Assembly (NCBI GenBank): GCA_000002445.1
Contig: CH464491.1
Coordinates: 2,848,001 to 2,912,000, forward strand
Source of the DNA: Trypanosoma brucei
Lineage: Eukaryota
Direction of reading: 5' to 3'
DNA: 64,000 bases
Shown here: piece by piece, positions 11,369 through 34,532 of the stretch
Numbering within the stretch: position 1 is the first letter of the stretch
Layout of the letters: every line of letters begins with the position of its first letter
The notes under the pieces: generated by a model
Told to the model about the DNA's origin: nothing
The model's input: the letters and a program-made list of their open reading frames with translations, nothing else
The model's database searches: none
Program-made: the position numbers and the translations under genes

Positions 11369-11743
11369 TTGGAGTTTTTTAGGGTGCAGCAAGGTGAGAA
11401 GGAGGTTAAATACCCTCCCCTCGTTTTATCCGCATCCGTCATTTTCCCCCTTTTTCTTCACTTCTCTTCGCTCTGTGCCCTCTTCCTTTTACATATGTGC
11501 GTTTACGATAAGCAGCAAAGGAATAATTTACATATCCAAGTTTCAATCACCAAAGAACGAGAAGGTAGAGTAAACGAAATAGGTTTGAGCAGATTAGGAA
11601 AAAAGTTTAAAAAGGAAGTGAGAAGCAGACAAGCTTGCAACGTTTGCGTGAGAAATAGGGGAAAAAGTGAGGTAAAGAAGGGTGCCTACGGGGGGGGAAA
11701 AAAAAATTATATTTACACATATCACCTAGAAACTCCACATATC

Positions 11744-12595: not shown

Positions 12596-12654
12596 AAGCG
12601 GCAATCGTTGCATCCACATATTTTTCTCTTTGTTAGGTGTAGGTTGTTTCACTG

Positions 12655-12686
12655 TTGCTGTTGGTGTTGGTGTTGGTGTTGGTGTC
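12655..12686. repeat. (GTTGGT)n microsatellite
   Basis: The run gttggtgttggtgttggtgttggtg is directly visible. Confidence 0.9.

Positions 12687-14204: not shown

Positions 14205-14208
<4 letters not shown>

Positions 14209-14246
<38 letters not shown>
14209..14246. repeat. (TA)n microsatellite (about 19 units)
   Basis: Directly visible. Confidence 0.95.
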
Positions 14247-14250
<4 letters not shown>

Positions 14251-16009: not shown

Positions 16010-16024
<15 letters not shown>

Positions 16025-16042
<18 letters not shown>

Positions 16043-16079
16043 TGTGCGTGCGTGCGTGTGTGTGTGTGTGTGTGTGTGT
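16025..16079. repeat. Compound (TA)n-(GCGT)n-(GT)n microsatellite
   Basis: The sequence tatatatatatatatatatgtgcgtgcgtgcgtgtgtgtgtgtgtgtgtgtgtgtg is directly visible. Confidence 0.95.
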
Positions 16080-17893: not shown

Positions 17894-17927
<34 letters not shown>

Positions 17928-18078
17928 ATCAATACCCGTACGCATGTGCATTTGTGCACCGTTTAGATGTTACCTTTACCTCATTCCTTTTACTTCTGTT
18001 GGGTTGCCTTGCCTCATCCTCACTCTTTAGCGGGGCGGCTACTGAAGCAGAGGGTACCGTAGTACATATCATAGCCGA

Positions 18079-19068
18079 ATGTTTCGTTTCAACCAAACCC
18101 TCCGTGCAGCACTGGCAACGCCAAAGGATATCGCAGCTGCTCTCCGTGTACTAGGATTGGACACCAACAGCGCGAATATCAGTAGCGAGGCAGTAAGAGC
18201 ACAGTATCTGAGACTTGCGCGGCTCCATCACCCAGATATCAGCAGTGGTGATGATCAGAAGATGAAGATTATCAACACAGCGTATGAGATGCTTCAGAGC
18301 AGCGGCGCTTTAAACCCAAAGGCCGCCAGTACGTCAGGTACGGCGGATGAAGACAAGGAAACAAAACCAGGCGACACTGTAGAAAATGCAAATGGTGGTC
18401 GGTTCTCCCCTAAGGCTGGACGACGACGGCGAAGGGTGCCGGATGATTTTGCGGACGGTGACAGGTGGGACATGAAGTCGACGCTCGAGTGGCGTGCTAT
18501 GACAATGATGGGAGCCGGGTCCGTGAGCGAGGAGGAGCTCCGCAACCCCGCAAATCACCCGTTCAGCCACAGTAAATTTTTTTCGTTCGAGGAGGACGTA
18601 ACGATCTACCGTATGATACGCGGCGGCGCGACGATACGCCAAGTGGCTCGTACACTAGGGAAGGCCCCAACATTTGTGGAGCGGCGCCTGCAGAACGCGC
18701 AGTTCAAACAGCGGGTGCAATATGTCATGCGGCATGAGAAGCGTCAAGGGCTGAAGGAGCGAGCTTCGGGGACGGGGGCGAACTCTGGTGGCTTTAACAT
18801 GACAGAGCGGCTGTTTGGGACAACTACCGGCGGGAACAGCCGCGGGCGGGAAGGTCACCGGAAGAAGGAGTGGGAACCAACCGCTCTCGATGGTGAGGTT
18901 CCTGCTCACTTCGCGGATATGAGTCTCGAGGAGAAGGGCCTCCACGCCCGACTAATGCAAGAGGAAAGGCGGCAGCAGCAACTTCCCTCCTGGGGCGTAG
19001 TGGCGTCGAAGGTGGGAAGGTCGTATTCAAATTACGCGCGATTCACTGGGAATTACAAAAAGACGTGA
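18079..19068 (+). CDS. DnaJ/J-domain protein (329 aa) with a possible C-terminal HTH-like segment
   Basis: The N-terminal J-domain has the invariant HPD tripeptide (...AQYLRLARLHHPDISSGDDQKMKIINTAYEMLQ...). Downstream, ...EEDVTIYRMIRGGATIRQVARTLGKAPTFVERRLQ... looks like a helix-turn-helix. The tail is basic and G/R-rich. Confidence 0.75.
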   Translation: MFRFNQTLRAALATPKDIAAALRVLGLDTNSANISSEAVRAQYLRLARLHHPDISSGDDQKMKIINTAYEMLQSSGALNPKAASTSGTADEDKETKPGDTVENANGGRFSPKAGRRRRRVPDDFADGDRWDMKSTLEWRAMTMMGAGSVSEEELRNPANHPFSHSKFFSFEEDVTIYRMIRGGATIRQVARTLGKAPTFVERRLQNAQFKQRVQYVMRHEKRQGLKERASGTGANSGGFNMTERLFGTTTGGNSRGREGHRKKEWEPTALDGEVPAHFADMSLEEKGLHARLMQEERRQQQLPSWGVVASKVGRSYSNYARFTGNYKKT

Positions 19069-19558: not shown

Positions 19559-22500
19559 ATGAGTGCACAGTTCAAAAAAGAAAATATTAAAGGGGAGGAA
19601 GGGGAGGGAAGGAAGGGAAAACCATTGCACAAGATGGCTCCCGGTGGCTGCGATGCGATCTTGCAGGAGGCGCTATTGTTGGGTTCATATGCTGATTTCT
19701 GGAAACTTGCCACCGGTTATACAAAGGCGCTATGCAATGTATACGTCGCCCCAAACCCCTATCCAACTCCTGGTGGAGGAAATGCAGCCGATGGACACAA
19801 CCCGAACTCAGCTACCCAAAATATGGTAAAAGTGACGACGACGGTACCTTGTAGCCTTAGGACCTTTGCCACGTTCATCACAGCGCCACGAAGCGTGCGA
19901 TACTGCGAGGACAACGTCATGTTTTGCGATATCATTGAAAGAGATAACAAGACAAAGTTGTTTCACACCGCATACGCAGGCGATCCTCCATGTGATGTGG
20001 TTGCCGTGCATATAACGGCGGCGTACAAAGTGCCGGAGAACACCACCGAAAACAATCCCTTGTGCAAGTTTGTGGCAAGCCTTCGTGACGATAAACGCCG
20101 GGGCCACGTGCCACAACCCTCGTCAACGATATTCGTTTACGCTATGAAGAGTGCTGAGCACCCCAAGACACCTCCTTCGCCGCCGTACGTGCGTATGCGC
20201 TTTCACTTATCTGCCTTTATCGCCTATGAAATACCAGGGCCACTCGTTCGAGTGGTGTTCGTTCACGCACCAGGAGATCGTACTCCAAAGATGGTTGACC
20301 GGTGCATAACAAAAATGGTCTGTGTGCGGAACTTATGCCAAATGCTTGAGTGGCTTAACACAGGTGGCCCTCTCACGGAACCTGTCATCTGGGAGAATCA
20401 GCGGCCACAAGAAACGCCAAATGCACACTCCGTTGGGGCCGAAAACACACGCGAGCCCAATCCTCTCGTTGAGGAGCCATCAGATGTAGTGTTACAAGGG
20501 GACAACCCATCCTCTGCTCCAGGCCGTGTATTTCAAACATTGTTTGCCCTGCATGCTTCAGCCGCGTGGCGTTTGGTCCTTCAACATGAAGGATGCACGG
20601 TGGAGGAATGCGAAGCACGATGTTGCTTTCCTGCACCGGCTTTTCTAAAGGCTTACCGTTTCGCGACAACTATCGCATGTTCTCTGGATATTTTCCGCCG
20701 ATTAGTGAGCGACCCGATGCAGTTGCACAGGTACGACCCGAGTGTAGAGAAAGTAGAGCTCCTCCACTCACAAAAGGGTGAGGATACCGTTCACATACAT
20801 TTCAAGCAACTGTCTCATTCTGCTCCCAAGCAGGATGCCTGCATTCTAACATCTAACGCACTCTTGCAACCCGACGAGGCACACCGATGGCGTTTATACC
20901 AGCTGACAGACAACATAAATGTTGTTTACGTGCAGAATGGTATTCAAAGCACTGAAATTCCTGCTGCTGGCGCGTGCGACCGACAGGTAGTGTATGCAAT
21001 GGGATACGTCGCCATCCCATCAGTGAAGCGACAACCCACGGGAGCTGGGGATGGCAATGAAGGCAGTGAGGCGCTGCGGGTCTACCATGTCGTCTGCGTG
21101 GACAACAACACTGCTTCATTCGCGGATAAGCAGCTTGTGACTATTCGTCAGCATTTTTTCCGCCTTACTGGAATACGAAATTTGTGCGATGAAGCGAAGA
21201 GCAAACCTCCTACCTGTTCTTTACCTCCTCACACAACTCGGGATGTTAATGATTTCTTCGAGAGCGGTACGTTAGCAGGATTTACAGAGGTGGAAACGCT
21301 TGAAGACGCCTCCCTTGAAAGAACAAGCAGCACGAATAATGTACGTAGACAGCTCGATTTAGTCGATGGGATGGAAGGCTACACCAGCCACGCGACTGCG
21401 CATGTGGACACCATGATGAACTCTTCTTCATTGGAGAAGCTTCACCAGTTTCTCTTGCACTTTGCACCCCATTATTGTATAGAGCACAAACAAAGTGAGC
21501 TCGACAACAAACTTGTTCCAGCAGCTGCTGCACTGCAACCCTCACCATTCACCGAGCAACAGCAAATATCCCCTTCAGTTTGGCAAGCACACGCGCCAAC
21601 ACCCGATCAGCAGAAACAGGAAGTGCAAACTGCTCAACTGGTGCAGCGTGGAAAAGTAAGTGCACCTCCAGCTATTCAGCAGAGTGGAGGAAAGGCAGCT
21701 TTGACATGGGACACCAGTGTGGAAGAGGTAGTGCCTGACAAGCAGAAACAGGAAGTGCAAACTGCTCAACTGGTGCAGCGTGGAAAAGTAAGTGCACCTC
21801 CAGCTATTCAGCAGATTGGAGGAAAGGCAGCTTTGACATGGGACACCAGTGTGGAAGAGGTAGTGCCTGACAAGCAGAAACAGGAAGTGCAAACTGCTCA
21901 ACTGGTGCAGCGTGGAAAAGTAAGTGCACCTCCAGCTATTCAGCAGATTGGAGGAAAGGCAGCTTTGACATGGGACACCAGTGTGGAAGAGGTAGTGCCT
22001 GACAAGCAGAAACAGGAAGTGCAAACTGCTCAACTGGTGCAATGTGGAAAAGTAAGTGCACCTCCAGCTATTCAGCAGATTGGAGGAAAGGCAGCTTTGA
22101 CATGGGACACCAGTGTGGAAGAGGTAGTGCCTGACAAGCAGAAACAGGAAGTGCAAACTGCTCAACTGGTGCAACGTGGAAAAGTAAGTGCACCTCCAGC
22201 TATTCAGCAGAGTGGAGGAAAGGCAGCTTTGACATGGGACACCAGTGTGGAAGAGGTAGTGCCTGACAAGCAGAAACAGGAAGTGCAAACTGCTCAACTG
22301 GTGCAACGTGGAAAAGTAAGTGCACCTCCAGCTATTCAGCAGAGTGGAGGAAAGGCAGCTTTGACATGGGACACCAGTGTGGAAGAGGTAGTGCCTGACA
22401 AGCAGAAACAGGAAGTGCAAACTGCTCAACTGGTGCAACGTGGAAAAGTAAGTGCACCTCCAGCTATTCAGCAGATTGGAGGAAAGGCAGCTTTGACATG

Positions 22501-25500
22501 GGACACCAGTGTGGAAGAGGTAGTGCCTGACAAGCAGAAACAGGAAGTGCAAACTGCTCAACTGGTGCAGCGTGGAAAAGTAAGTGCACCTCCAGCTATT
22601 CAGCAGATTGGAGGAAAGGCAGCTTTGACATGGGACACCAGTGTGGAAGAGGTAGTGCCTGACAAGCAGAAACAGGAAGTGCAAACTGCTCAACTGGTGC
22701 AGCGTGGAAAAGTAAGTGCACCTCCAGCTATTCAGCAGATTGGAGGAAAGGCAGCTTTGACATGGGACACCAGTGTGGAAGAGGTAGTGCCTGACAAGCA
22801 GAAACAGGAAGTGCAAACTGCTCAACTGGTGCAACGTGGAAAAGTAAGTGCACCTCCAGCTATTCAGCAGATTGGAGGAAAGGCAGCTTTGACATGGGAC
22901 ACCAGTGTGGAAGAGGTAGTGCCTGACAAGCAGAAACAGGAAGTGCAAACTGCTCAACTGGTGCAACGTGGAAAAGTAAGTGCACCTCCAGCTATTCAGC
23001 AGAGTGGAGGAAAGGCAGCTTTGACATGGGACACCAGTGTGGAAGAGGTAGTGCCTGACAAGCAGAAACAGGAAGTGCAAACTGCTCAACTGGTGCAACG
23101 TGGAAAAGTAAGTGCACCTCCAGCTATTCAGCAGAGTGGAGGAAAGGCAGCTTTGACATGGGACACCAGTGTGGAAGAGGTAGTGCCTGACAAGCAGAAA
23201 CAGGAAGTGCAAACTGCTCAACTGGTGCAACGTGGAAAAGTAAGTGCACCTCCAGCTATTCAGCAGAGTGGAGGAAAGGCAGCTTTGACATGGGACACCA
23301 GTGTGGAAGAGGTAGTGCCTGACAAGCAGAAACAGGAAGTGCAAACTGCTCAACTGGTGCAATGTGGAAAAGTAAGTGCACCTCCAGCTATTCAGCAGAG
23401 TGGAGGAAAGGCAGCTTTGACATGGGACACCAGTGTGGAAGAGGTAGTGCCTGACAAGCAGAAACAGGAAGTGCAAACTGCTCAACTGGTGCAATGTGGA
23501 AAAGTAAGTGCACCTCCAGCTATTCAGCAGAGTGGAGGAAAGGCAGCTTTGACATGGGACACCAGTGTGGAAGAGGTAGTGCCTGACAAGCAGAAACAGG
23601 AAGTGCAAACTGCTCAACTGGTGCAATGTGGAAAAGTAAGTGCACCTCCAGCTATTCAGCAGATTGGAGGAAAGGCAGCTTTGACATGGGACACCAGTGT
23701 GGAAGAGGTAGTGCCTGACAAGCAGAAACAGGAAGTGCAAACTGCTCAACTGGTGCAACGTGGAAAAGTAAGTGCACCTCCAGCTATTCAGCAGAGTGGA
23801 GGAAAGGCAGCTTTGACATGGGACACCAGTGTGGAAGAGGTAGTGCCTGACAAGCAGAAACAGGAAGTGCAAACTGCTCAACTGGTGCAACGTGGAAAAG
23901 TAAGTGCACCTCCAGCTATTCAGCAGAGTGAAAAAGGGGCTATCGACAGAAAAGAAAAGAACGTTCATATGAAGAATTTTATGCAGGCGATTCACACTGA
24001 AGGCGAGCCCGTTCATAGGAGAAGAGATGATGAAAGACTGGGGTTGCAACCATTACAGAGAAAGAAAGGTTTCCAATCCATCCCAACCAATCTTGAAGAG
24101 GAAGCATCCCCAGTACAGGTGATCGGTGAAGAATCAAAACGCAATAGTGGGGAACCGCAACCAGTTGGGGGGCAAGGGGATTGCTTGGCGCGAGCAGTGC
24201 GGGAGGGACAGGAGAAATTAACACGACTTACGGGGGGTTGGTGTAAAGGACGCATAGAGAAAACTTCTGCTTTCGGAGAAAAAGATAGCCCCGTACAAGA
24301 AGTTCAGGTAAAGGAGAATATCCCGCAAGTAACCTGTGGCTTGAGTGTGTGGCCCACGCCAGATGCATTGAAAGTTAGGAGGGAAGGAATGAGCGTCTTG
24401 AAATTGTCACAGCGGCTGGAGCTTCGCCCCGCTCGGCAGGAACCACGGCGGCAGGAAGAGTTGATATGGCCCATGAAGGGAGGATGGCAAGGATCTTCGG
24501 GTTCAGTAAGTGATGGGAATGAAGGATTGTTATTGCCGATGGGATCGCGGTCTGTGGATACAGATGACGTATGGGAAGAGCGCGTTAAATTATCTGACGG
24601 AACGTTCGGCCGGAAGGTGAACAACAAAATTCAGGTAAACGTCCGGGCGTGTCGTAACATGCCAGCGGCAACGCAAAAAAAACATATGCTGTCTATTCAG
24701 ATCAGCACATCTTCTACGGAGGCGCAAACATGGTTGGTACCTCTGACCCTCAATCCCATCTTCCCCCATCAAACAATTTTACTGGACGAACCAGAAGATG
24801 ACACGGTCAACGTTACAGCGATAGTAAAAACTGAAGATGATCGCATGAAGCGACTGGGGGAAGCAGTTGTTTCGCTGCGCTATTTGCATGTGTTAGATTC
24901 GTATACCCGCTGGATTTCGCTGATATGTAATGTAGGCACAAGCGATGCTTTCGAATGTGGTGACGTTTGCATTACTTTCCGTCGCGGTACAGAAGAAGGA
25001 CCCAATGGTGTCGTCTCAATTAATGGAAAGCAATGCGAACAGCAGCAACTGCAGTGGGGGGAAGCCGAAAGGACACAAGAAGAGGAGAAACTGCGGCGTT
25101 ATGTCCGTGATGTGCTTGTATCCGCGGGGAATGCAAACCTCCACTTGTTGGAGTGGTTAGTAGGGAACTGCTACCGTAAAACACCAGGGGAAATAGATGC
25201 GTTTATTAGGCGGTATAGGAAAGATGATACAATAATGCTAACTGTGTTTGAGGTGTGCGGACTTAGAACGGAAGTCGGGGTCCCACTACTGCGTCCGGTG
25301 CCTTGCCACGTTTTGGTTGAAACAAGCAGAGGATCGTGTACAACATCCCCCGTAAACCTTCAAGGACAAGCAGCTCCGCTGAACATGGTGTTTCACCTGG
25401 TAATAGGGGTGAACGAACCCATTCGTCTCATCGTATTTACCGGCGACACCGCGGTTGGTGAAACGGTTATTACCACTGCCCAAGATGGCACGCGCACTCG

Positions 25501-28030
25501 CGTGTTGGTTTCGCGGGCCGGCACGGAGGAAGCGGTACCTTGTGGTACGATCACTGTAGGTACGAGGCGCGGTAGCGTATCTGAATTGACTGAAAGCCCC
25601 AAACCACTTCGAGTGGAAGTAAATGAAGAGAACAGCAAGCGCATGGCGTACCTACACCACATATTATGGATGAACGCCCGAAGCTCACTTCACAAGCTGG
25701 ATGTAATTGCCGCTTCCCCACTGGAGTCGGGCCGTCTACTGGAAAAGTTTGGACCGACAGCGAAGTGGTACGATCTTCGAGTTTCCTTGAGGCACTGGAG
25801 GCCCACATCTGCTGCGTGGGATAGCCCAATAGTTGACAATACACTTGGCACTCACAAGAGAGAAAAAGACGGCGATGAGTTGCTGCAACATGTACAAACG
25901 GTATACCGCAGGGTATTCGCTGTGGTTCACATTGGGTTGCAGTACCATAAAACTTTTGAGGTCCGTACCGACTGTGCTGGTGAAGTGCACTTCAATGAAA
26001 CCTTCACTTTCAGTGGTGTTTGCCCTCGGCGGGATGAGGTTTTTGTGTCTGTCATCGGGAAGGGTCTCACTGGCACCGAGGATCATGATCTGGGAGTAAC
26101 CGTCCTTTCCATGAAATCACTGAAGTTACAACAGCGAACCCACATGACTGTTCCGTTGGTGCGCCAAGCGGGAACTCGTGGTGCTCGCTTCCAAGGATCA
26201 CTGTACTTGGAACTGTTTGCGGTTAACTTTGACGGTGTTGCCGCTAACGACTACGAGGCAGAAATGTGTCGGCCTTCTATTCGGAGCATTCTTTACCACC
26301 ACGCACCTAGAGAGTTGCATAAGGCAGAGTGCTTCCTTGGTAGCTACGCAAGCCGTGAAAAGGACTGCCTACGAGAGCTACGAAAAACCTATGGGCCGGA
26401 CATTCTCAAACTACCCATGGCGATACGGCTAATGAGCCTGAACCAACTGACACCTTATCCTAACAGTTACTTGAAAGTGTACCTCAATGATACCCCAGTG
26501 ATACGCACTGAGAAGCTATCCACCGATGATCCTATTTTATTCGACCCAGAAGACAGCAAAAGTAGGGCAAGGGTACTCGTTGATGATGTCTATGACGTTA
26601 GGTTACGGTTCAAGGTGAAGCAAACGCGATTTTTACTAACAAAGACTCTTTGCACGGGTGATTTTTCCTTACGAGGTATGGTGGTATCGCAGGAGGGCGT
26701 ATACTGGATCCCTTTGGTTGACAGTGAGGGTGTGAGTGTCGGGAATCTCTGTGTTGAACTGAAGTCAAGTGCTTTTGTCTACAATGATACTGTGAAAAGG
26801 GCTAAAGATTTTGTGGAGGACGACGTCGTGTCGTTAATTCGGAGGTACAGACCGTCTAAGGTGCCCATCATGCATATGATAATGGAAAAAGTCTCAAATC
26901 GGGAGGCAGCCCACTCCGAAATCAGAAGGGAGGTCGTTACCGAACCGGTTGCAGCTACAGTGTTTATATCTGTAGAACTCCTTTCCATTCATCGTGTGTT
27001 TTTCGAGCAAACCGAGGAAGACGATCAGCAGGTGTGGCCAGAAGGTGAGACGGAATATGTTGTGACAGCAAAATACGGTGGCGATGAAAGTAGTACTACA
27101 ACCAAAAACTTCACACCACAAGGGAACAGCAGCACCATTCGCCTAGACGTGCGCACCTTTCGCGAACGGAAAGCACACAAGCTCATCATCACTGTCCGAC
27201 GTCAGCGCACCCTTCCACCGCCTTGCCCTGCGAAATCGTCGGAAGCGCAGAACGGCAAGATTCCGCGTTTTGGTCCATTTTGTAAAGCCACCCCTGTTGT
27301 GTCGAAGCAAAGGCCGCGTGTTATAATGCCCCAGCCTCCCTCCCTTTTACATGAACCTGAATATGTAGGTTGCGCAGTCATCTCTCTCCGTGCGCTTTTC
27401 ACCCCTTTGCTCTACAGCACCGGGGAGCTCGTGACGGTACCGCTGCTTTACCTTCCACCGAACGCGAATGGAGGGCCGGTTGTACCGGACGGCCGGGACC
27501 ATACCGGCAGTGGTGTACATTCTGAAGGGGAAGTTGTCGGAAACATTGCGTTCAGGGTGCGCCTTCCAGCGTATGAGCAGATCCCTTCATGGTTGCAATT
27601 CGACGCCACAACCCTCGAAAAAGAAATTAAGCTGGACCGAGCGGCCATTCGATACTATGAGGAGCGCATTCGCAATATTTTAGCTGAGCACAAATCACAC
27701 TGTTTGTGGAATATGCACTACAGATTGTATGAAAAATACGTTGCCAGTGGCCACTGGCATCGACTGCTGCGTGGCTGGAGAAATGCGTTGCTGCGGCAAT
27801 TCCCCTCAGCAAATAACAGCAACGACGTTCCAACATCTTCCATGTGGTACGCCCCCTCGACAGCATCCGATCGCGACTTGAGGAGCGATAATATGAACAG
27901 CATCTTGGAAAGACTGAAAGGAGAGTTTAGCAGTGACGACAGTTTGATGGGCGATGTCGCGGAAACAGAAATGGCAGGGGGAGAAAACTCGATAGAAACA
28001 GGAAGCGGGAGCGAAAGCGAAAGTGACTAA
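19559..28030 (+). CDS. Giant repeat-containing protein (2823 aa): unique N-terminal region, about 18 x 44-aa tandem repeats, then a C-terminal region with several C2-like domains
   Basis: A single uninterrupted ORF. The central block repeats VPDKQKQEVQTAQLVQRGKVSAPPAIQQ[S/I]GGKAALTWDTSVEEV. Three C-terminal segments have C2-domain-like beta-sandwich patterns: ...KIQVNVRACRNMP...LDEPEDDTVNVTAIV...; ...FEVRTDCAGEVHFNETFTF...; ...YLKVYLNDTPVIRTEKLSTDDPILFDPED.... The start could instead be the internal Met at 19634 (MAPGGC...). A pyrimidine-rich tract lies at 19190-19350. Confidence 0.8.
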   Translation: MSAQFKKENIKGEEGEGRKGKPLHKMAPGGCDAILQEALLLGSYADFWKLATGYTKALCNVYVAPNPYPTPGGGNAADGHNPNSATQNMVKVTTTVPCSLRTFATFITAPRSVRYCEDNVMFCDIIERDNKTKLFHTAYAGDPPCDVVAVHITAAYKVPENTTENNPLCKFVASLRDDKRRGHVPQPSSTIFVYAMKSAEHPKTPPSPPYVRMRFHLSAFIAYEIPGPLVRVVFVHAPGDRTPKMVDRCITKMVCVRNLCQMLEWLNTGGPLTEPVIWENQRPQETPNAHSVGAENTREPNPLVEEPSDVVLQGDNPSSAPGRVFQTLFALHASAAWRLVLQHEGCTVEECEARCCFPAPAFLKAYRFATTIACSLDIFRRLVSDPMQLHRYDPSVEKVELLHSQKGEDTVHIHFKQLSHSAPKQDACILTSNALLQPDEAHRWRLYQLTDNINVVYVQNGIQSTEIPAAGACDRQVVYAMGYVAIPSVKRQPTGAGDGNEGSEALRVYHVVCVDNNTASFADKQLVTIRQHFFRLTGIRNLCDEAKSKPPTCSLPPHTTRDVNDFFESGTLAGFTEVETLEDASLERTSSTNNVRRQLDLVDGMEGYTSHATAHVDTMMNSSSLEKLHQFLLHFAPHYCIEHKQSELDNKLVPAAAALQPSPFTEQQQISPSVWQAHAPTPDQQKQEVQTAQLVQRGKVSAPPAIQQSGGKAALTWDTSVEEVVPDKQKQEVQTAQLVQRGKVSAPPAIQQIGGKAALTWDTSVEEVVPDKQKQEVQTAQLVQRGKVSAPPAIQQIGGKAALTWDTSVEEVVPDKQKQEVQTAQLVQCGKVSAPPAIQQIGGKAALTWDTSVEEVVPDKQKQEVQTAQLVQRGKVSAPPAIQQSGGKAALTWDTSVEEVVPDKQKQEVQTAQLVQRGKVSAPPAIQQSGGKAALTWDTSVEEVVPDKQKQEVQTAQLVQRGKVSAPPAIQQIGGKAALTWDTSVEEVVPDKQKQEVQTAQLVQRGKVSAPPAIQQIGGKAALTWDTSVEEVVPDKQKQEVQTAQLVQRGKVSAPPAIQQIGGKAALTWDTSVEEVVPDKQKQEVQTAQLVQRGKVSAPPAIQQIGGKAALTWDTSVEEVVPDKQKQEVQTAQLVQRGKVSAPPAIQQSGGKAALTWDTSVEEVVPDKQKQEVQTAQLVQRGKVSAPPAIQQSGGKAALTWDTSVEEVVPDKQKQEVQTAQLVQRGKVSAPPAIQQSGGKAALTWDTSVEEVVPDKQKQEVQTAQLVQCGKVSAPPAIQQSGGKAALTWDTSVEEVVPDKQKQEVQTAQLVQCGKVSAPPAIQQSGGKAALTWDTSVEEVVPDKQKQEVQTAQLVQCGKVSAPPAIQQIGGKAALTWDTSVEEVVPDKQKQEVQTAQLVQRGKVSAPPAIQQSGGKAALTWDTSVEEVVPDKQKQEVQTAQLVQRGKVSAPPAIQQSEKGAIDRKEKNVHMKNFMQAIHTEGEPVHRRRDDERLGLQPLQRKKGFQSIPTNLEEEASPVQVIGEESKRNSGEPQPVGGQGDCLARAVREGQEKLTRLTGGWCKGRIEKTSAFGEKDSPVQEVQVKENIPQVTCGLSVWPTPDALKVRREGMSVLKLSQRLELRPARQEPRRQEELIWPMKGGWQGSSGSVSDGNEGLLLPMGSRSVDTDDVWEERVKLSDGTFGRKVNNKIQVNVRACRNMPAATQKKHMLSIQISTSSTEAQTWLVPLTLNPIFPHQTILLDEPEDDTVNVTAIVKTEDDRMKRLGEAVVSLRYLHVLDSYTRWISLICNVGTSDAFECGDVCITFRRGTEEGPNGVVSINGKQCEQQQLQWGEAERTQEEEKLRRYVRDVLVSAGNANLHLLEWLVGNCYRKTPGEIDAFIRRYRKDDTIMLTVFEVCGLRTEVGVPLLRPVPCHVLVETSRGSCTTSPVNLQGQAAPLNMVFHLVIGVNEPIRLIVFTGDTAVGETVITTAQDGTRTRVLVSRAGTEEAVPCGTITVGTRRGSVSELTESPKPLRVEVNEENSKRMAYLHHILWMNARSSLHKLDVIAASPLESGRLLEKFGPTAKWYDLRVSLRHWRPTSAAWDSPIVDNTLGTHKREKDGDELLQHVQTVYRRVFAVVHIGLQYHKTFEVRTDCAGEVHFNETFTFSGVCPRRDEVFVSVIGKGLTGTEDHDLGVTVLSMKSLKLQQRTHMTVPLVRQAGTRGARFQGSLYLELFAVNFDGVAANDYEAEMCRPSIRSILYHHAPRELHKAECFLGSYASREKDCLRELRKTYGPDILKLPMAIRLMSLNQLTPYPNSYLKVYLNDTPVIRTEKLSTDDPILFDPEDSKSRARVLVDDVYDVRLRFKVKQTRFLLTKTLCTGDFSLRGMVVSQEGVYWIPLVDSEGVSVGNLCVELKSSAFVYNDTVKRAKDFVEDDVVSLIRRYRPSKVPIMHMIMEKVSNREAAHSEIRREVVTEPVAATVFISVELLSIHRVFFEQTEEDDQQVWPEGETEYVVTAKYGGDESSTTTKNFTPQGNSSTIRLDVRTFRERKAHKLIITVRRQRTLPPPCPAKSSEAQNGKIPRFGPFCKATPVVSKQRPRVIMPQPPSLLHEPEYVGCAVISLRALFTPLLYSTGELVTVPLLYLPPNANGGPVVPDGRDHTGSGVHSEGEVVGNIAFRVRLPAYEQIPSWLQFDATTLEKEIKLDRAAIRYYEERIRNILAEHKSHCLWNMHYRLYEKYVASGHWHRLLRGWRNALLRQFPSANNSNDVPTSSMWYAPSTASDRDLRSDNMNSILERLKGEFSSDDSLMGDVAETEMAGGENSIETGSGSESESD
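21599..23926 (+). repeat. 132-bp (44-codon) tandem repeat array, about 17.6 copies, over 97% identical
   Basis: The period was measured directly: gtgcctgacaagcagaaacagg recurs at 21731, 21863 and onward, every 132 nt. The only variation is a few SNPs, giving R/C (cgtgg vs tgtgg) and S/I (agtgg vs attgg). Confidence 0.95.
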
Positions 28031-28602: not shown

Positions 28603-30555
28603 ATGCGCAGGTGCCTTATTTTGCCTGTTTTGACTACAGCGAGCAAAAGCAGCTTTGCTTCGTGCCGCCACAGCAGCAGCGGTGATGGAAGAAATGGCGG
28701 TCTCGGCAGCAGCGCTAGCAGCAGCGCTACCACCATAAGAGAAAGCATGAAGTCGGCAGGATTTAACTTTAACACCCCCAACTTCTGCCTTGAGGGCGCG
28801 ACTGAGTCAGATGTTGCCGACACGGCAGGTGAACTTATCACAAGCCCAGTGACTTCCCTCAACTTCGTGCGTGACATGTACGGCCCGTGGTTGGTGCTGA
28901 CGGAGGAAATACAGGGTGAATTGTTCATTGACCACGACAAGATGGTGTACCTCCGCCCTGCAAACGGCCTTGGATTCGGTGTTGGTCGCATAGACACTGG
29001 AGAGCCGTGTTCGTCAGGCACAGCCTTTCTCATGAGCCTAGAATGGTACACATATCCGGCAACAACGTCAATGCCCCCAAATAACGCCTGTAAAACCGAA
29101 GTCACTGGCGTGGTGAAACATGTACACTCATCTTCCATGGATTACAGCACATTCACCCTAGTCGCCTCGTGGCGAAGCAGCAGCGGCACTAGTGGGAAAT
29201 TCAACGCGGCAAAACTCTCGCCTTGGGACCCAGTGGGAGGCGTGAAGCGCTGGACACCTAACGGTGACCTAATGCAAGTATTCCATCAGGTATTCCCCAC
29301 CCCACTGAGGCTAACCTCTCATATCAAACGGGCGACAGCAGCCCGTCAAGTGGGAAGCCGGTCTGGTGGTTTAGGCGAAGGGGAATTGGGTTCGTCCCCG
29401 CACCACTTATCGTTAGAACAGTATCGCGTCGGAGAACTACCCGACTTGTACTACATTCCCAACTATATTTCAGAGGAAGAGGAACAGGAAATGATGGAAG
29501 CTGTTCGTAGCACACCACGCGAACTGAAAACGCAGCTTACCAAGCGCACTGTACAAGAATGGGGTTGCAGTATGTGCGAGACATGCAATAAGAGCTTCGT
29601 ATCCGATCGTAACATGCCCCCTTGGGTGGAGGCTTGTACCGACATGCAGGTGTACGATGGTATCTTCACACCCTCCGTGTTCCCTAACAGTGTACGAGTG
29701 CATGAATACCACCCACACGAGGGCATCGCCCCGCATTGCGATGGTCCCATTTATGTACCGCGCGTGTCGGTGCTTTCGCTTGGCACTCCGTGCGTGATGT
29801 TTTTCTACTCCCGCCGTGAGCCTTACTCCGAGCCAATGGAACACTACAACGATACTTTCCGCTTCAAAGAGGGTATCGCCAAAGAATCACCGATTCAATC
29901 GGTGGTGTTAGAGCCCCGCTCCCTTTTGGTGTTTGCCGGTGATGTCTTTCACTACTATCCACACGGAACCTGCGACAGGAAAATAGTCCCCTTAACAACG
30001 GAGGTGGCGGGTCGGGTAGTGAATAGACATCTTCTTCAGGATCCAGACATAAAGGAAGTGCACAAAGGTTTCCGCGTGAGTGTCACTACGCGCAATCTCC
30101 TTCCACGGTGCAACCACCAGCCGGAACGGACTGAGTACGGGATGAAACGCGCATGGTTTATTTACAACCAACTGCCCGTGCCGCAGCAGCTGTTCACTTC
30201 ACCGCCTTTGGCTCCGGATGCTAAGACTGGAAATGCGGGGGGTGAAGAGAAAGCGAAGCCATTTGACGCTTCAGCAGGAAAATCAGCAGCAGGAAGTGCA
30301 CACCCGGGCACTGATGAGAATATGGCAAATATCGAAAAGAAGTTGGACCAGTTACTCAAACAGCAAAACGCGTTGTCACAGCAGTTGGACGAAGTGCGGC
30401 AACTAATAGCGGGAGATGCAGGTTTCCGTCACGAGGTATCGACTGTGTTGGGTCATCTCACCTCAACTGTCCTGCAGATAGAAAGCAAGTTGGAAGAGTT
30501 GGAGGATAATCGCGCACGTGAGATGGGCGAAACCGGCGGCCAGCCAACTGCGTAA
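28603..30555 (+). CDS. AlkB-family 2OG-Fe(II) dioxygenase (ALKBH6-like core) with long N- and C-terminal extensions and a C-terminal coiled-coil (650 aa)
   Basis: The core VRVHEYHPHEGIAPHCDGPIYVPRVSVLSLGTPCVMFFY...LEPRSLLVFAGDVFHYYPHG carries the HxD...H iron-binding motif and closely resembles the ALKBH6 block (V.EY.PG.GI.PH.DGP.Y.P.V...SLG). A polypyrimidine tract at 28380-28500 precedes the ATG. The C-terminus (...NIEKKLDQLLKQQNALSQQLDEVRQLIAG...) is coiled-coil. Confidence 0.7.
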   Translation: MRRCLILPVLTTASKSSFASCRHSSSGDGRNGGLGSSASSSATTIRESMKSAGFNFNTPNFCLEGATESDVADTAGELITSPVTSLNFVRDMYGPWLVLTEEIQGELFIDHDKMVYLRPANGLGFGVGRIDTGEPCSSGTAFLMSLEWYTYPATTSMPPNNACKTEVTGVVKHVHSSSMDYSTFTLVASWRSSSGTSGKFNAAKLSPWDPVGGVKRWTPNGDLMQVFHQVFPTPLRLTSHIKRATAARQVGSRSGGLGEGELGSSPHHLSLEQYRVGELPDLYYIPNYISEEEEQEMMEAVRSTPRELKTQLTKRTVQEWGCSMCETCNKSFVSDRNMPPWVEACTDMQVYDGIFTPSVFPNSVRVHEYHPHEGIAPHCDGPIYVPRVSVLSLGTPCVMFFYSRREPYSEPMEHYNDTFRFKEGIAKESPIQSVVLEPRSLLVFAGDVFHYYPHGTCDRKIVPLTTEVAGRVVNRHLLQDPDIKEVHKGFRVSVTTRNLLPRCNHQPERTEYGMKRAWFIYNQLPVPQQLFTSPPLAPDAKTGNAGGEEKAKPFDASAGKSAAGSAHPGTDENMANIEKKLDQLLKQQNALSQQLDEVRQLIAGDAGFRHEVSTVLGHLTSTVLQIESKLEELEDNRAREMGETGGQPTA

Positions 30556-31201
30556 AGAACAGGGGTAGGGTGCTCCAAAAAAAAAAAAGGCAAAAAGGGC
30601 ACCCATTTGGTGTGCAACTTGGTTGTTTCTGTTTTTTCTTCCTTTGGTGCAGAGTGAGGGCAGACAGCACAGTAGGCTATTTGGTTTGTTTCCATCGCTT
30701 GTTGGAATGCTACGCAGAGCGCGAGGTTGATGGTATTTTTCGGGGGTTCCCATTTATCTTCGGGTAGTCACGGGCCCCAATTATGTGTGTGGTGCATTTG
30801 CATACACATGTATTGGGAAAGTTTGGTAGCGACATGAACGTATCGGAGCGACGCATCGGTTTTGTGCAAAAGAAATGAGGCAAAGCCACGGCGTGGGGAA
30901 GGCACATAGGAATTATCTCTTTATGATTTTATTTCTTACCATTATCATAAATGCTTTCCACTTTCGCTGCCCATCTCTCACACACACACTCTCTTCAGGG
31001 GAGGTTGTATATACGTGAGGCATTAATACCCTCCACCTCCTGCCCCGGGGCTTTCCTCTGCTTCGACGTGTTTGGTGCATTGTCGTTTGCTCATCTGGGT
31101 TCTTTTTAAAAAAAAAACGGGATGCACATGTTCATAGTAGTAGCGGCGCCCACCTCCGCCTTCATTTGGTGAGAAAGTGGCGCTTTGCACTCAAGCAGGG
31201 A

Positions 31202-31984
31202 ATGGAAAATGATGTGGATGAAGAGGTTCGATTGCTATTGGCCGTGTTCCCTGACGAAGTAAAGAGGGATCCTGGTCATGCAGGGACCCTCATCGTTTCA
31301 CTGCCGTTCCGCTTTGAATTGCAAATAACACTCCCCCCGCATGGGTACCCTTCCACATCGCCTCCGTCATTGTTCGTCGCGTCTGGACCAAACGTAACTC
31401 TCATTAGTGAATACTCTTCCCAACTCTTGCGGCTCGTGCGGGAGGAGATTCCGCTCGGTGGGCCGATGCTCCTTCATATTGTAACACTTGCCCAAAACCT
31501 CGCCACCGAGCTTCAAGTGACGCGCGAAGCGCAGCGACAGGCAAAAGAGGAACAGCAGGCGAAACATAAGCTTGAAGCCGCGGCGAAGGAAGAGGAACTG
31601 CAGGTTACAGCAGTGGAAGTGTGGAGCAGTGATCCCATCACCGACCGGAAGTCCAAGTTTGTGGCGCACATGGCACGAGTAAACTCTGAGGCAGGTGTAC
31701 AGGAGGTGGTGCAGCATCTGCGGCGGCAGAAGCACATCGCGGAAGCTACGCACCCCACCATTTACGCCTACCGGTTCACTGACACTGCTGGAGTCTTGCA
31801 TGCCGATTGCAATGACGATGGTGAAACGGGGGCGGCGTCGCGGATTATGTTTCTGTTGGAGCAGAAGAAAGTGGACGGATACGTGGTGGTGGTGACACGC
31901 TGGTTTGGTGGTATATTATTGGGACCCGACCGGTTCAAACACATCATGGAGGTGGTGCACAATATTCTCTTGACAATGCCGTAA
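31202..31984 (+). CDS. IMPACT/YIH1-family protein (RWD domain plus UPF0029 domain)
   Basis: The N-terminal segment has an RWD-like pattern (EVRLLLAVFPDEV...SLPFRFELQITLPPHGYPSTSPP). The C-terminal IMPACT domain reads SKFVAHMARVNSEAGVQEVVQHLRRQKHIAEATHPTIYAYRF...DDGETGAASRIMFLLEQKKVDGYVVVVTRWFGGILLGPDRFKHI. The ORF opens at 31166, but I take the in-frame ATG at 31202 as the likely start. Confidence 0.75.
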   Translation: MENDVDEEVRLLLAVFPDEVKRDPGHAGTLIVSLPFRFELQITLPPHGYPSTSPPSLFVASGPNVTLISEYSSQLLRLVREEIPLGGPMLLHIVTLAQNLATELQVTREAQRQAKEEQQAKHKLEAAAKEEELQVTAVEVWSSDPITDRKSKFVAHMARVNSEAGVQEVVQHLRRQKHIAEATHPTIYAYRFTDTAGVLHADCNDDGETGAASRIMFLLEQKKVDGYVVVVTRWFGGILLGPDRFKHIMEVVHNILLTMP

Positions 31985-33371: not shown

Positions 33372-34532
33372 ATGAGCAGTGCGCACAACACTCTGGAGTC
33401 AATCAAGTATCGTCGGGGAGTGCTACAGCTGCTCGACCAGCGTCGACTTCCACTGGAAACAGTATACTGCGACATAACCAGTATTGACGACATATGTTGC
33501 GCCATTAAGGAGATGCGTGTTCGTGGTGCGCCCGCCATAGCTGTCAGCGCCGCCCTTGCACTTGCTGTGGTAGCAGAGCGGGAACTAAAGGAGCAGCGGC
33601 AAAACTCGGTGTGGAAAACCGCTGACGATATGCGGCAGTTTTTGCTGATGAGCTGTGACAAAATGATGTCTGCCCGTCCTACTGCGGTTAATCTATCAAA
33701 GGTGCTCATTCAATTGAAGAAAGATATTGAAACGGACAAGGCTAATACGATGGAAGCCGTGTTAGAGACTTGTGTTCAACTTGCCGAAAAAATATACGCC
33801 GCCGATGTTTCCTTCAATGAGAGAATTATGCGCCACGGTGCTGCCCACCTGTTGAAACTGGCGTCAAAAGAACGGGTGAACATTTTAACCATATGCAACA
33901 CGGGGGCCCTTGCCACATCCCGCTATGGGACCGCTCTTGGCATTGTGCGGCAGCTCTTCTACGAGGGTCACCTGCAGCATCTGTATGCCTGCGAGACGCG
34001 GCCGTGGAATCAGGGGGCGAGGCTCACCGTCTACGAATGCGTACAAGAAAATATTCCATGCACACTCATCTGCGACAGCGCCGTTTCGGCCGTCATGAAA
34101 ACGCACGACATCGACGCTGTTGTTGTGGGAGCCGACCGCATATGCAAAAACGGCGATACAGCAAATAAGATTGGCACGTACAACCTTGCGGTAGCGGCAG
34201 CATATCACAAGGTGCCCTTTTTTGTCGCAGCGCCTTCTACAACACTCGATCCGCTAACACCAGATGGTGAAGGGGTTGTCATCGAGGAGCGGGAAGCGAC
34301 GGAAATAACACATATCGCCAGCGGTGGCGGGGGCCTACAGAGTGACAAAAGCAATTCCGATTACGGGAGGAAGCGTGTGGTGGCAGACGGGCCCCATCTG
34401 AAAGTGTGGAATCCCGTGTTTGACATCACCCCCGCCTCTCTCATCACTGGAGGTATTATCACAGAGCACGGTGTCTTTCCCCCTGCCACAGCGGGTCCGC
34501 TCTTTGACATATCCCGTATTGTTGAGCCTTGA
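33372..34532 (+). CDS. MTNA: Methylthioribose-1-phosphate isomerase (eIF-2B alpha/beta/delta-like family)
   Basis: The protein [44 protein letters not shown]...[21 protein letters not shown]...[43 protein letters not shown] is collinear with Mri1/MtnA across the substrate-binding Cys/Asp region. Confidence 0.85.

What the first reader, a model, noticed from the sequence alone, without database searches (positions are those of the whole stretch)
28603..30555. ALKBH6-like dioxygenase core embedded in a 650-aa protein with extra N-terminal domain and C-terminal coiled-coil
The 2OG-Fe(II) oxygenase block (HEYHPHEGIAPHCDGPIYVPRVSVLSLG...) is very close to the ALKBH6 signature, but typical ALKBH6 proteins are about 240-270 aa. 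Here it is preceded by about 330 aa (S-rich N-terminus, then a unique folded-looking region) and followed by a coiled-coil (NIEKKLDQLLKQQNALSQQLDEVRQL...). This lineage-specific domain fusion could target the demethylase or hydroxylase to a structure or complex.
Basis: partly seen in the sequence, partly recalled or inferred. Interest (0 to 1): 0.5.

Follow-up and report, generated by a model that had tools for sequence, protein, structure and literature searches.

The report
Mitochondrial ALKBH6-like dioxygenase with extra domains
This Trypanosoma brucei gene (Tb927.11.10960) encodes a mitochondrial version of the poorly understood enzyme ALKBH6, extended in all kinetoplastids by an import signal, a domain unknown elsewhere at sequence level and a coiled-coil tail; it is real and uncharacterised, but it is a variant of a known enzyme family.

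Summary
Window 28603-30555 (+) is one uninterrupted 650-aa ORF, identical to T. brucei TREU927 XP_829161.1 (Tb927.11.10960).

- **Core (residues 270-521):** an ALKBH6-type Fe(II)/2-oxoglutarate dioxygenase. The family profile matches human ALKBH6 in the PDB at E=3.5e-38, against 2e-3 for the next AlkB. The Fe triad (H378, D380, H454), the 2OG residues (Y369, R491, S493) and the substrate tyrosine (Y384) are conserved.
- **"S-rich N-terminus" (about residues 1-44):** a basic, acid-free segment that looks like a mitochondrial presequence. Published proteomics places the protein in the ATOM40-dependent mitochondrial importome.
- **Residues 45-255:** a confidently modelled eight-stranded streptavidin/calycin-like beta-barrel. 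It has no Pfam or PDB sequence relatives and occurs only in this protein family among 1.84 billion representatives.
- **Possible zinc site:** C325, C328 and C503 are invariant and H505 is usually His. This suggests a zinc knuckle in the Flip2 lid.
- **Residues 571-643:** a conserved heptad coiled-coil hairpin.

More than 60 orthologues across Kinetoplastea, including Bodo and Trypanoplasma, share the whole architecture. Canonical ALKBH6 proteins are 203-321 aa.

The substrate is unknown. I infer a mitochondrial oxidative demethylase acting on methylated nucleotides or nucleic acids. It is a new variant of a known kind and of moderate interest.

The parts
28603..30555 (+). Complete gene Tb927.11.10960: 650 codons plus the stop codon at 30553-30555.
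   Evidence: ORF list. 100% identity to XP_829161.1/EAN80049.1. Computed mass 71,772.0 Da equals the 71.772 kDa listed for Tb927.11.10960/Q383I2.
28603..28734 (+). Residues 1-44: probable mitochondrial targeting presequence.
   Evidence: pLDDT is below 50 for residues 1-37. Across orthologues the first 30 residues carry 4-9 K/R, 0-2 D/E and many S/T, and R3 is at least 90% conserved. Median pI is 11.8 and net charge +6, while every other domain is acidic. An R-[HG]-x-S-[ST]-like motif recurs. Import depends on ATOM40. Caveat: the TargetP and MitoFates columns are blank for this protein in Peikert et al..
28735..29367 (+). Residues 45-255: family-specific N-terminal domain. It has an N-terminal arm (45-93), an eight-stranded up-and-down beta-barrel (strands 94-204) and two helices (221-254).
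29410..30165 (+). Residues 270-521: ALKBH6-type Fe(II)/2OG dioxygenase core (double-stranded beta-helix) plus a conserved C-terminal helix (507-521).
   Evidence: Pfam PF13532 scores 28.0 bits, below the 31.2 cut-off.
29734..29742 (+). H378-C379-D380: the HxD pair of Fe(II) ligands.
   Evidence: Aligned with human ALKBH6 H114-E115-D116. H378 and D380 are invariant in 64/64 orthologues.
29962..29964 (+). H454: the distal Fe(II) ligand.
   Evidence: Aligned with human H182. His in 62/63 orthologues.
30073..30093 (+). R491-V-S493-V-T495-T-R497: the 2OG-binding RxSxTxR motif.
   Evidence: Aligned with human R218/S220/R224. The 2OG contacts of R218 and S220 are from PMC8892091. R491 and R497 are at least 90% conserved and T495 is invariant.
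29575..29586 (+). C325-E-T-C328: an invariant CxxC in a 3-residue-longer Flip2 lid. Putative zinc knuckle.
   Evidence: C325 and C328 are present in 64/64 orthologues, and C322 in 54/64. They lie in the turn between strands 322-324 and 332-334. Human ALKBH6 has no Cys here. The metal site is inferred, not shown.
30109..30117 (+). C503-N-H505: the putative second half of the metal site.
   Evidence: C503 is present in 63/63 orthologues. Position 505 is His in 56 and Asp in 7.
30166..30312 (+). Residues 522-570: variable, disordered linker.
   Evidence: pLDDT 40-56. Mean majority-residue fraction is 0.27 and length varies from 27 to 174 aa.
30313..30531 (+). Residues 571-643: two long amphipathic helices (571-602 and 608-643) forming a coiled-coil hairpin or oligomerisation module.
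   Evidence: AF2 helices. Heptad a/d positions are 85% and 70% hydrophobic, against 24% and 22% at other positions, across the alignment. The helices are present in 60-61 of 64 orthologues. Only generic coiled-coil matches were found.

Best explanation
**Shown**

- The gene encodes a single 650-aa protein, T. brucei Tb927.11.10960.
- Its catalytic domain is an orthologue-grade relative of ALKBH6, with a complete Fe(II)/2-oxoglutarate site.
- The protein is imported into the mitochondrion.
- The whole architecture is conserved across Kinetoplastea.

**Inferred**

- The basic N-terminal ~25-44 residues are a cleavable presequence.
- The mature, acidic enzyme works in the mitochondrial matrix as an oxidative demethylase or hydroxylase. 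It would use Fe(II), O2 and 2OG to hydroxylate an N-methyl group, which then leaves as formaldehyde.
[quoted passage not shown] The most likely substrates are therefore methylated mononucleotides or short or terminal nucleic-acid moieties of the mitochondrial pool, rather than long duplex DNA.
- The family-specific eight-stranded barrel packs on the core and acts as a ligand- or substrate-binding or gating module.
- A Cys3-His/Asp metal site stiffens the Flip2 lid by tying it to the C-terminal extension.
- The C-terminal coiled-coil hairpin oligomerises the enzyme or docks it to a partner.
For: - **Identity:**
- **ALKBH6 assignment:** phmmer 2.3e-27; family profile 3.5e-38 against 2e-3 for ALKBH8; Foldseek E 6e-16 with TM 0.78-0.82; 27-36% identity to hundreds of proteins named ALKBH6.
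- **Active-site residues:** H378/D380/H454, Y369, R491/S493/R497 and Y384 align with human H114/D116/H182, Y105, R218/S220/R224 and Y120, and are invariant or nearly so. Their roles are taken from PMC8892091 and PMC12494543.
- **Mitochondrial location (Peikert et al. 2017):** SILAC ratio 0.285 in purified mitochondria after ATOM40 RNAi (P=0.003), 0.61 in the organellar fraction, 0.82 in whole cells, and unchanged (0.98) after SAM50 RNAi. The protein is also in the Panigrahi/Mach mitochondrial proteome and in the Zikova 2017 mitoproteome table.
- **Presequence character:**
- **Barrel:**. Its restriction to this family.
- **Putative metal ligands:**
- **Coiled coil:**
- **Acidic mature domains (pI 4.8-5.9):**
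Against: - No enzymatic, genetic or localisation experiment specific to this protein exists in the searchable literature.
- TargetP and MitoFates did not flag a presequence in Peikert's table, so the signal could be atypical or internal.
- The 2OG-contacting Asn of human ALKBH6 (N103) is His here (H367, 63/64 orthologues). The effect on cofactor binding is unknown.
- The nucleotide-demethylase activity of human ALKBH6 rests on a single 2025 study and may not transfer to a protein with 32-37% identity and three extra modules.
- I could not inspect model coordinates. The barrel-core interface, the barrel pocket and the metal-site geometry are therefore unverified.
Confidence: 0.6

Rival explanations
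1. The same mitochondrial ALKBH6-type enzyme works on polymeric nucleic acids specific to kinetoplastid mitochondria. One option is erasing or oxidising methyl marks (m1A, m3C, m7G) on tRNAs, all of which are imported from the cytosol. Others are acting on rRNA, mRNA or guide RNA, or repairing alkylated kDNA. In this view the barrel and coiled coil provide RNA or partner recognition.
Against: All mature domains are acidic, with median pI 4.8-5.9 and net charge -5 to -6 each. This is unusual for a polymer-binding nucleic-acid enzyme. There is no RRM, zinc-finger RNA-binding or other nucleic-acid-binding Pfam domain. The protein is not listed in the RNA-editing, MRB1 or mitoribosome columns of Peikert's reference table. 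It does not match any chain of solved trypanosomatid mitochondrial complexes in the PDB.
Confidence: 0.25
2. The protein acts on a protein substrate as a hydroxylase or demethylase, as proposed for ALKBH4 and ALKBH7, or serves mainly as a scaffold or regulatory subunit of a mitochondrial complex. The barrel would bind a peptide, as in Gid4, and the coiled coil would anchor it.
Against: The nucleotide-contacting Y120 equivalent and all cofactor ligands are invariant, which argues for a catalytic, ALKBH6-like nucleotide pocket. The avidin-like hits are stronger than the Gid4-like ones. There is no match to any solved mitochondrial complex.
Confidence: 0.1
3. The long protein is an annotation artefact: separate genes fused by a missed stop or frameshift, or a wrong start codon (true start at M49).
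For: Two metagenome gene calls of the same 90% cluster are 602 aa long, which corresponds to a start at M49.
Against: The reading frame is continuous. The N-terminal MRR and the basic extension are conserved in most orthologues. The barrel, core and coiled coil are collinear in more than 60 species. The barrel is never found without the core, apart from fragments. pTM 0.78 indicates one packed unit. Mass spectrometry gave 20 peptides and 41% coverage of the 71.8-kDa product. There is no ATG between the upstream polypyrimidine/AG region and 28603.
Confidence: 0.02

Closest known systems
Human ALKBH6 (PDB 7VJS/7VJV) and canonical eukaryotic ALKBH6 proteins
   Same: Same double-stranded beta-helix core, with 32-37% identity over about 200-230 residues. 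The Fe triad HxD...H, the 2OG-binding Tyr, Arg and Ser, and the substrate Tyr (Y120 = Y384) are all present, as are the Flip1, Flip2 and Flip3 positions.
   Different: - Canonical proteins are single-domain, 203-321 aa, and have no reported mitochondrial targeting signal.
- This protein adds a presequence-like N-terminus, a 210-aa barrel domain, a CxxC...CxH putative metal site, a conserved structured Flip3 in place of a disordered Pro-rich loop, a C-terminal helix and a coiled-coil hairpin.
- N103 is replaced by His and E115 by Cys.
AlkB domain of human ALKBH8 (PDB 3THP/3THT), a tRNA mcm5U hydroxylase
   Same: It is the second-best AlkB relative by sequence and fold. It is also a multi-domain AlkB protein in which accessory domains select the substrate.
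   Different: The similarity is much weaker (E 2e-3 to 7e-3, against 1e-27 to 1e-38 for ALKBH6). ALKBH8's accessory domains are an RRM and a methyltransferase, and neither is present here.
Human mitochondrial AlkB homologues ALKBH7 and ALKBH1
   Same: They are AlkB-family dioxygenases that work inside mitochondria. Per the literature cited, ALKBH1 makes f5C in mt-tRNA-Met and ALKBH7 is reported on mt-RNA.
   Different: They belong to different subfamilies: the ALKBH7 Foldseek E-value is about 1e-7, against 6e-16 for ALKBH6. T. cruzi has a separate ALKBH1 homologue, C4B63_7g420, whereas the orthologue of this gene is C4B63_40g156. Mitochondrial targeting of the ALKBH6 lineage appears to be independent.
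Streptavidin/avidin-like and calycin eight-stranded beta-barrels (including Cap15, Gid4 and the cathepsin C exclusion domain)
   Different: There is no detectable sequence relationship. The biotin-binding or lipocalin signature motifs were not identified. The barrel is fused to an enzyme core and flanked by an N-terminal arm and two helices.

Membership tests
ALKBH6 subfamily of AlkB Fe(II)/2OG dioxygenases | The catalytic domain is most similar, by sequence and by fold, to ALKBH6 rather than to other AlkB or 2OG oxygenases. | tested here: met
   phmmer against PDB: ALKBH6 2.3e-27, ALKBH8 6.7e-3. Family profile: 3.5e-38 against 2e-3. Foldseek: 7vjv/7vjs E about 1e-15, TM 0.78-0.82. The best non-kinetoplastid database hits are proteins named ALKBH6.
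ALKBH6 subfamily of AlkB Fe(II)/2OG dioxygenases | HxD...H Fe(II)-binding triad (human H114, D116, H182). | tested here: met
   H378, D380 and H454 are aligned. They are present in 64/64, 64/64 and 62/63 orthologues.
ALKBH6 subfamily of AlkB Fe(II)/2OG dioxygenases | 2OG-binding residues Y105, R218 and S220 (PMC8892091). | tested here: met
   They correspond to Y369 (invariant), R491 and S493 within RVSVTTR.
ALKBH6 subfamily of AlkB Fe(II)/2OG dioxygenases | 2OG-binding Asn (human N103). | tested here: not met
   The aligned residue is H367, which is His in 63/64 orthologues. This is a conservative family-specific substitution whose consequence is unknown.
ALKBH6 subfamily of AlkB Fe(II)/2OG dioxygenases | Substrate (7me-GMP)-binding Tyr120 (PMC12494543). 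| tested here: met
   Y384 in GPIY aligns with human GPLY and is invariant. The role of Y120 is described.
ALKBH6 subfamily of AlkB Fe(II)/2OG dioxygenases | Single-domain protein of about 220-290 aa. | tested here: not met
   This protein is 650 aa with three extra modules. Canonical proteins among the best 120 hits are 203-321 aa.
ALKBH6 subfamily of AlkB Fe(II)/2OG dioxygenases | 2OG-dependent demethylation of N-methylated nucleotides. | not testable with these tools
   This needs recombinant enzyme assays.
Pfam PF13532 (2OG-FeII_Oxy_2) | Score at or above the gathering threshold of 31.2 bits. | tested here: not met
   The score is 28.0 bits (E 3.1e-6) over residues 282-460. Many orthologues carry a precomputed PF13532 hit, so this is a borderline miss and not evidence against the fold.
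Mitochondrial matrix-targeted (presequence) proteins | Import dependent on the outer-membrane translocase, and presence in purified mitochondria. | tested here: met
   This comes from published data, not my own experiment. The ATOM40-RNAi SILAC ratio is 0.285 in purified mitochondria. The protein is in the Panigrahi/Mach proteome and in the Zikova 2017 table.
Mitochondrial matrix-targeted (presequence) proteins | N-terminal basic, acid-poor, hydroxylated presequence recognised by predictors. | tested here: inconclusive
   The composition fits: 5 K/R, 1 D/E and 9 S/T in the first 30 aa, conserved in character across 49 orthologues, with median pI 11.8. However, the TargetP and MitoFates columns are blank for this protein in Peikert's table.
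Streptavidin-like / calycin eight-stranded beta-barrels | Eight antiparallel strands in an up-and-down closed barrel. | tested here: met
Streptavidin-like / calycin eight-stranded beta-barrels | Sequence signatures of avidins or lipocalins, or a demonstrated ligand pocket. | tested here: not met
   No Pfam hit in any of 25 N-domains and no PDB sequence hit. Identity to structural neighbours is 6-20%.
Coiled coil | Long helices with heptad a/d hydrophobic periodicity. | tested here: met
   Helices 571-602 and 608-643. The a/d positions are 0.85 and 0.70 hydrophobic, against 0.24 and 0.22 elsewhere, and this is conserved in 60-61 of 64 orthologues.

The most novel reading that the evidence does not exclude
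Kinetoplastids moved their ALKBH6 into the mitochondrion and equipped it with a nucleotide- or RNA-end-binding barrel and an oligomerising tail. This created an organelle-specific 'eraser'. It would strip or oxidise cytosolic methyl marks (m1A, m3C, m7G) from imported tRNAs, or act on guide or edited RNAs or kDNA. If so, it would be a mitochondrial epitranscriptomic step with no counterpart in other eukaryotes, and a clue to the still unclear physiological role of ALKBH6.
Probability: 0.15. Interest if true: 0.75.

Novelty: new variant of a known kind. Interest (0 to 1): 0.45.

Why it matters
- **An open enzyme question.** ALKBH6 is the least understood human AlkB homologue. A substrate (methylated mononucleotides) was proposed only in 2025.
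- **A natural experiment.** A lineage in which the ALKBH6 core is constrained by three conserved accessory modules and confined to one organelle could help define what the enzyme recognises.
- **Parasite biology.** This is one of the 'hypothetical conserved' mitochondrial proteins of T. brucei, T. cruzi and Leishmania. It has a complete oxygen-, iron- and 2OG-dependent active site. It could therefore link mitochondrial metabolism (2OG and succinate levels, oxygen) to nucleotide or RNA quality control.
- **Possible selectivity.** Its parasite-specific domains were found only in this family among 1.84 billion representative proteins, and no canonical ALKBH6, human included, carries them. In principle they are selective handles.
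- **Limits.** None of this is established. The present result is a precise, testable domain map.

Tried and rejected
- **Foldseek against afdb50** for the barrel domain: the library is not installed.
- **Core-only word-indexed protein search:** it returned only 8 hits and missed the parent protein itself. I repeated it with a small profile.
- **Pfam, NCBIfam and PDB sequence searches** for the N-domain and C-terminus gave nothing specific. The hits to Myosin_tail, EzrA and a GCN4 fusion are generic coiled-coil noise.
- **Three extra hits of the N-domain profile** (P0097-P0099) are bacterial Ig/cadherin-repeat adhesins with 9-12 short matched stretches. I rejected them as compositional or beta-strand noise.
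- **Literature searches** for ALKBH6 plus Trypanosoma, AlkB plus Tb927, the gene ID, the UniProt ID and the old locus tag found no paper text that discusses this protein.
- **Supplements held for the TrypTag paper and for a 2026 kDNA screen** do not contain the gene ID. I therefore found no microscopy localisation and no kDNA phenotype.
- **Stable subunit of a solved trypanosomatid mitochondrial complex:** I considered this and rejected it. Neither the single sequence nor the family profile matches any PDB chain other than the AlkB proteins.
- **Taxonomy of the most divergent metagenomic members** could not be resolved. Their contigs show dense, same-strand gene arrays, as in kinetoplastids, and one keeps the IMPACT neighbour.
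- **Gene-fusion artefact:** I considered this and rejected it; see the rival explanations.
Full report
**1. Observation**

No ATG lies between the upstream polypyrimidine/AG region and 28603. The product is 100% identical to T. brucei TREU927 XP_829161.1/EAN80049.1, annotated 'hypothetical protein, conserved', and to the T. equiperdum protein annotated '2OG-Fe(II) oxygenase superfamily, putative'. Its computed average mass is 71,772.0 Da. This equals the 71.772 kDa listed for Tb927.11.10960 (old Tb11.01.2740, UniProt Q383I2), a chromosome-11 protein with a 2OG-dioxygenase GO term, in the supplement of Peikert et al. 2017. That gives the gene its identifier. The window is therefore T. brucei chromosome 11, in a long same-strand gene array.

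**2. The catalytic core is ALKBH6-like**

- Pfam finds only PF13532 (2OG-FeII_Oxy_2), at 28.0 bits. This is just under the 31.2-bit cut-off.
- A sequence search of all PDB chains gives human ALKBH6 (7VJS) at E=2.3e-27 over residues 270-465, and ALKBH8 at only 6.7e-3.
- With a profile of 64 orthologues the gap widens: ALKBH6 3.5e-38 over the whole core, ALKBH8 2e-3, ALKBH5 5e-3.
- The AlphaFold model matches 7VJV/7VJS best. Foldseek gives E 6e-16 and 1e-15, target TM-score 0.78 and 0.82, and 32-33% identity. ALKBH8, Ofd2, NMAD-1 and ALKBH5 trail by at least six orders of magnitude.
- A profile search of the 5.8-billion-protein collection returns 1,927 proteins at E<=1e-10. Apart from the three alignment members, a few unnamed metagenome proteins and two fragments of the kinetoplastid type, the best 120 are animal and fungal proteins. 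Many are named ALKBH6. They show 27-36% identity over about 70-90% of the core and are 203-321 aa long. The only other long protein is a 389-aa one carrying an extra helicase-C domain (PF00271), whose origin I did not examine.

Residue mapping onto human ALKBH6 uses the roles reported in PMC8892091 and PMC12494543:

| Human ALKBH6 | Role | T. brucei | Conservation |
|---|---|---|---|
| H114, D116, H182 | Fe ligands | H378, D380, H454 | 64/64, 64/64, 62/63 |
| Y105 | 2OG binding | Y369 | invariant |
| R218, S220, R224 | 2OG binding motif | R491, S493, R497 | R491 and R497 at least 90% |
| Y120 | 7me-GMP binding | Y384 | invariant |
| N103 | 2OG contact | H367 | His in 63/64 |
| E115 | between Fe ligands | C379 | Cys in 44/64 |

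The last two rows are the differences from the human enzyme. The site looks catalytically competent.

**3. The N-terminal ~44 residues and mitochondrial location**

Residues 1-37 are modelled with pLDDT below 50 and are poorly conserved in sequence, but they are strikingly conserved in character. Almost all of the 49 orthologues with an intact N-terminus start with MRR, MR or MK. They carry 4-9 Lys/Arg and 0-2 Asp/Glu in the first 30 residues and are rich in Ser/Thr. Median pI is 11.8 and net charge +6, whereas every downstream domain is acidic. Many contain an R-[HG]-x-S-[ST]-like motif near the end of the segment. This is the signature of a mitochondrial presequence.

Independent experimental support comes from published proteomics. 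In Peikert et al. 2017 the protein falls to a SILAC ratio of 0.285 (log2 -1.81, P=0.003, four replicates, 20 peptides, 41% coverage) in gradient-purified mitochondria after ATOM40 RNAi. It falls to 0.61 in a crude organellar fraction and only to 0.82 in whole cells, and it is unchanged (0.98) after SAM50 RNAi. It is also ticked in the Panigrahi/Mach mitochondrial proteome column. In the Zikova et al. 2017 mitoproteome table it appears under 'unknown' function.

There is one caveat. The TargetP and MitoFates columns are empty for this protein in Peikert's reference table. The presequence assignment therefore rests on my composition analysis plus the import data, not on those predictors.

**4. 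The 'unique folded-looking region'**

Residues 45-255 are modelled with pLDDT mostly 90-98 in the full-length model (pTM 0.78) and 81 on average when modelled alone. The domain consists of an arm (45-93), eight consecutive beta-strands (94-204) and two helices (221-254).

It is thus a streptavidin/calycin-type up-and-down barrel. At sequence level it is an orphan. There is no Pfam hit in any of 25 orthologous N-domains and no PDB sequence relative (best E 0.65). A profile search of 1.84 billion representative proteins finds 23 proteins. Twenty of these are members or fragments of this same fusion family. The other three are bacterial Ig/cadherin-repeat adhesins matched in 9-12 short stretches, which I regard as noise.

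Conserved polar residues sit on alternating strand positions: E106, R118, E147/Y149/Y151, Y181/T183, K204, and a G124-x-G126-x-G128 face. This would suit a polar ligand pocket or the interface with the core. I could not inspect coordinates, so it remains an inference.

**5. Other family-specific features of the core**

- **Flip2 and a possible metal site.** Relative to human ALKBH6, the Flip2 lid is three residues longer and contains an invariant C325-x-x-C328 at a beta-hairpin turn. C322 is Cys in 54/64 orthologues. Just after the last core strand lies the invariant C503, followed by position 505, which is His in 56 orthologues and Asp in 7. Three invariant cysteines plus a His/Asp in a CxxC...CxH arrangement suggest a structural zinc site tying Flip2 to the C-terminal extension. 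This is inferred and not shown.
- **Flip3.** This region is Pro-rich and disordered in the human crystal structure. Here it is replaced by a longer, nearly invariant segment (PMEHYNDTFKF-G-I) with helical elements and high pLDDT.
- **C-terminal helix.** A conserved helix (507-521; RAEYxMKRAW) follows the core.

**6. The C-terminus**

After a variable disordered linker (522-570) come two long helices, 571-602 and 608-643. Across the 64-sequence alignment the best heptad register puts hydrophobic residues at 85% and 70% of a/d positions, against 24% and 22% elsewhere. The helices are present in 60-61 of 64 orthologues. Database matches are only generic coiled coils. Whether it forms an intramolecular hairpin, an oligomer or a docking element is unknown.

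**7. Distribution**

Full-length orthologues, mostly 600-830 aa, occur in many lineages:

- Trypanosoma species: T. congolense, T. vivax, T. cruzi, T. grayi, T. theileri, T. rangeli and T. conorhini.
- Leishmania, Porcisia, Leptomonas, Novymonas, Strigomonas, Angomonas and Phytomonas.
- The free-living Bodo saltans, plus a partial Trypanoplasma borreli transcript.
- Many unnamed metagenome contigs.

Three divergent metagenomic members sit in dense, almost entirely same-strand gene arrays. One keeps the same downstream neighbour as in T. brucei, an IMPACT-family gene. The architecture therefore dates at least to the common ancestor of these kinetoplastids. I found no member outside this family context, but I could not assign taxa to the unnamed sequences, so its presence in diplonemids or euglenids is open.

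**8. Mechanism**

The following points are shown:

- The protein has an ALKBH6-type catalytic domain with an intact cofactor site.
- It is imported into mitochondria.
- It has a conserved multi-domain architecture.

The following points are inferred:

- It is an active Fe(II)/2OG oxidative demethylase or hydroxylase in the mitochondrion.
- Mononucleotides or small or terminal nucleic-acid moieties are the most likely substrates, for three reasons. [quoted passage not shown] The Y120 equivalent is invariant here. All mature domains are acidic, with pI 4.8-5.9.
- The barrel would act as a binding or gating module, the putative zinc site as a lid brace, and the coiled coil as an oligomerisation or docking device.

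The main rival is action on polymeric mitochondrial nucleic acids such as imported tRNAs, other RNAs or kDNA. A protein-directed or scaffold role is less likely. A gene-model artefact is excluded.

**9. Novelty and verdict**

No paper in the searchable library mentions the gene by any identifier, and I found none that discusses a kinetoplastid ALKBH6. The gene is, however, already in public databases, is machine-annotated as 'alkB like protein 6' in several species, and is known from proteomics to be mitochondrial. What is new is the domain dissection and the observation that the ALKBH6 lineage has been re-targeted and elaborated in kinetoplastids. I classify it as a new variant of a known kind, of moderate interest (0.45).

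Noticed in passing
window 19559-28030 (+), repeats at 21609-23930: The upstream neighbour is a 2,823-aa protein. It contains 17.6 tandem copies of a 132-bp (44-aa) unit at 99% identity, and a C2 domain near residue 2,150. In a syntenic metagenomic kinetoplastid contig (L003), the large protein two genes upstream of the orthologue carries START domains.
   Followed up: partly
window 31166-31984 (+) and 33372-34532 (+); L003 7920-8867, L004 3223-4170: The immediately downstream gene is an IMPACT homologue (RWD + UPF0029/Impact_N), followed by an IF-2B-family protein. The ALKBH6-like/IMPACT adjacency is conserved in a divergent kinetoplastid-like metagenome contig. The listed TTG start at 31166 is probably not the true start.
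   Followed up: partly
window about 12000-18000: A stretch with markedly low G+C (0.33-0.43, against about 0.50 elsewhere) and no ORF of 200 aa or more, lying between the genes at 11369-12595 and 18079-19068. It was not examined.
   Followed up: no
window 61936-62561 and 63256-63521: Two arrays of a 60-bp tandem repeat (10.4 and 4.4 copies, 95-97% matches). They are overlapped by long ORFs on both strands. This is also where the long ORFs switch from the + strand to mainly the - strand, so it may be near a strand-switch region. No tRNA genes were found anywhere in the window.
   Followed up: no
window 9603-11072 (+); also 2744-5290, 39814-44988, 45573-46271: Other genes in the array: a 489-aa tubulin-family protein (probably a non-alpha/beta tubulin), a CFAP58-like coiled-coil protein, a Vps8-like beta-propeller protein of 1,724 aa, and an RNase PH-domain protein.
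   Followed up: no
not in the window: Tb927.5.980 (supplement of PMC5436138): A second 2OG dioxygenase is in the T. brucei mitochondrial importome. It is 35 kDa, has an ATOM40-RNAi ratio of 0.22, and its best human hit is listed as ALKBH8 at 8e-12. T. brucei mitochondria thus seem to import at least two AlkB-like enzymes.
   Followed up: no
P0105 (241 aa, JGI metagenome): This is the closest canonical-length ALKBH6-like protein, with 36% identity to the T. brucei core. It shares kinetoplastid-type motifs absent from human ALKBH6: PHCDGP, SLGTPC, LLPRC and a Cys-rich C-terminus. It may represent a short relative of the lineage that gave rise to the fusion. Its organism is unknown.
   Followed up: no
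P0068, P0069 (Logan assemblies, same 90% cluster as the window protein): Two automatic gene calls of 602 aa correspond to a start at Met49, which would remove the presequence-like segment. Conservation of the MRR N-terminus argues for Met1, but the start has not been verified experimentally.
   Followed up: partly
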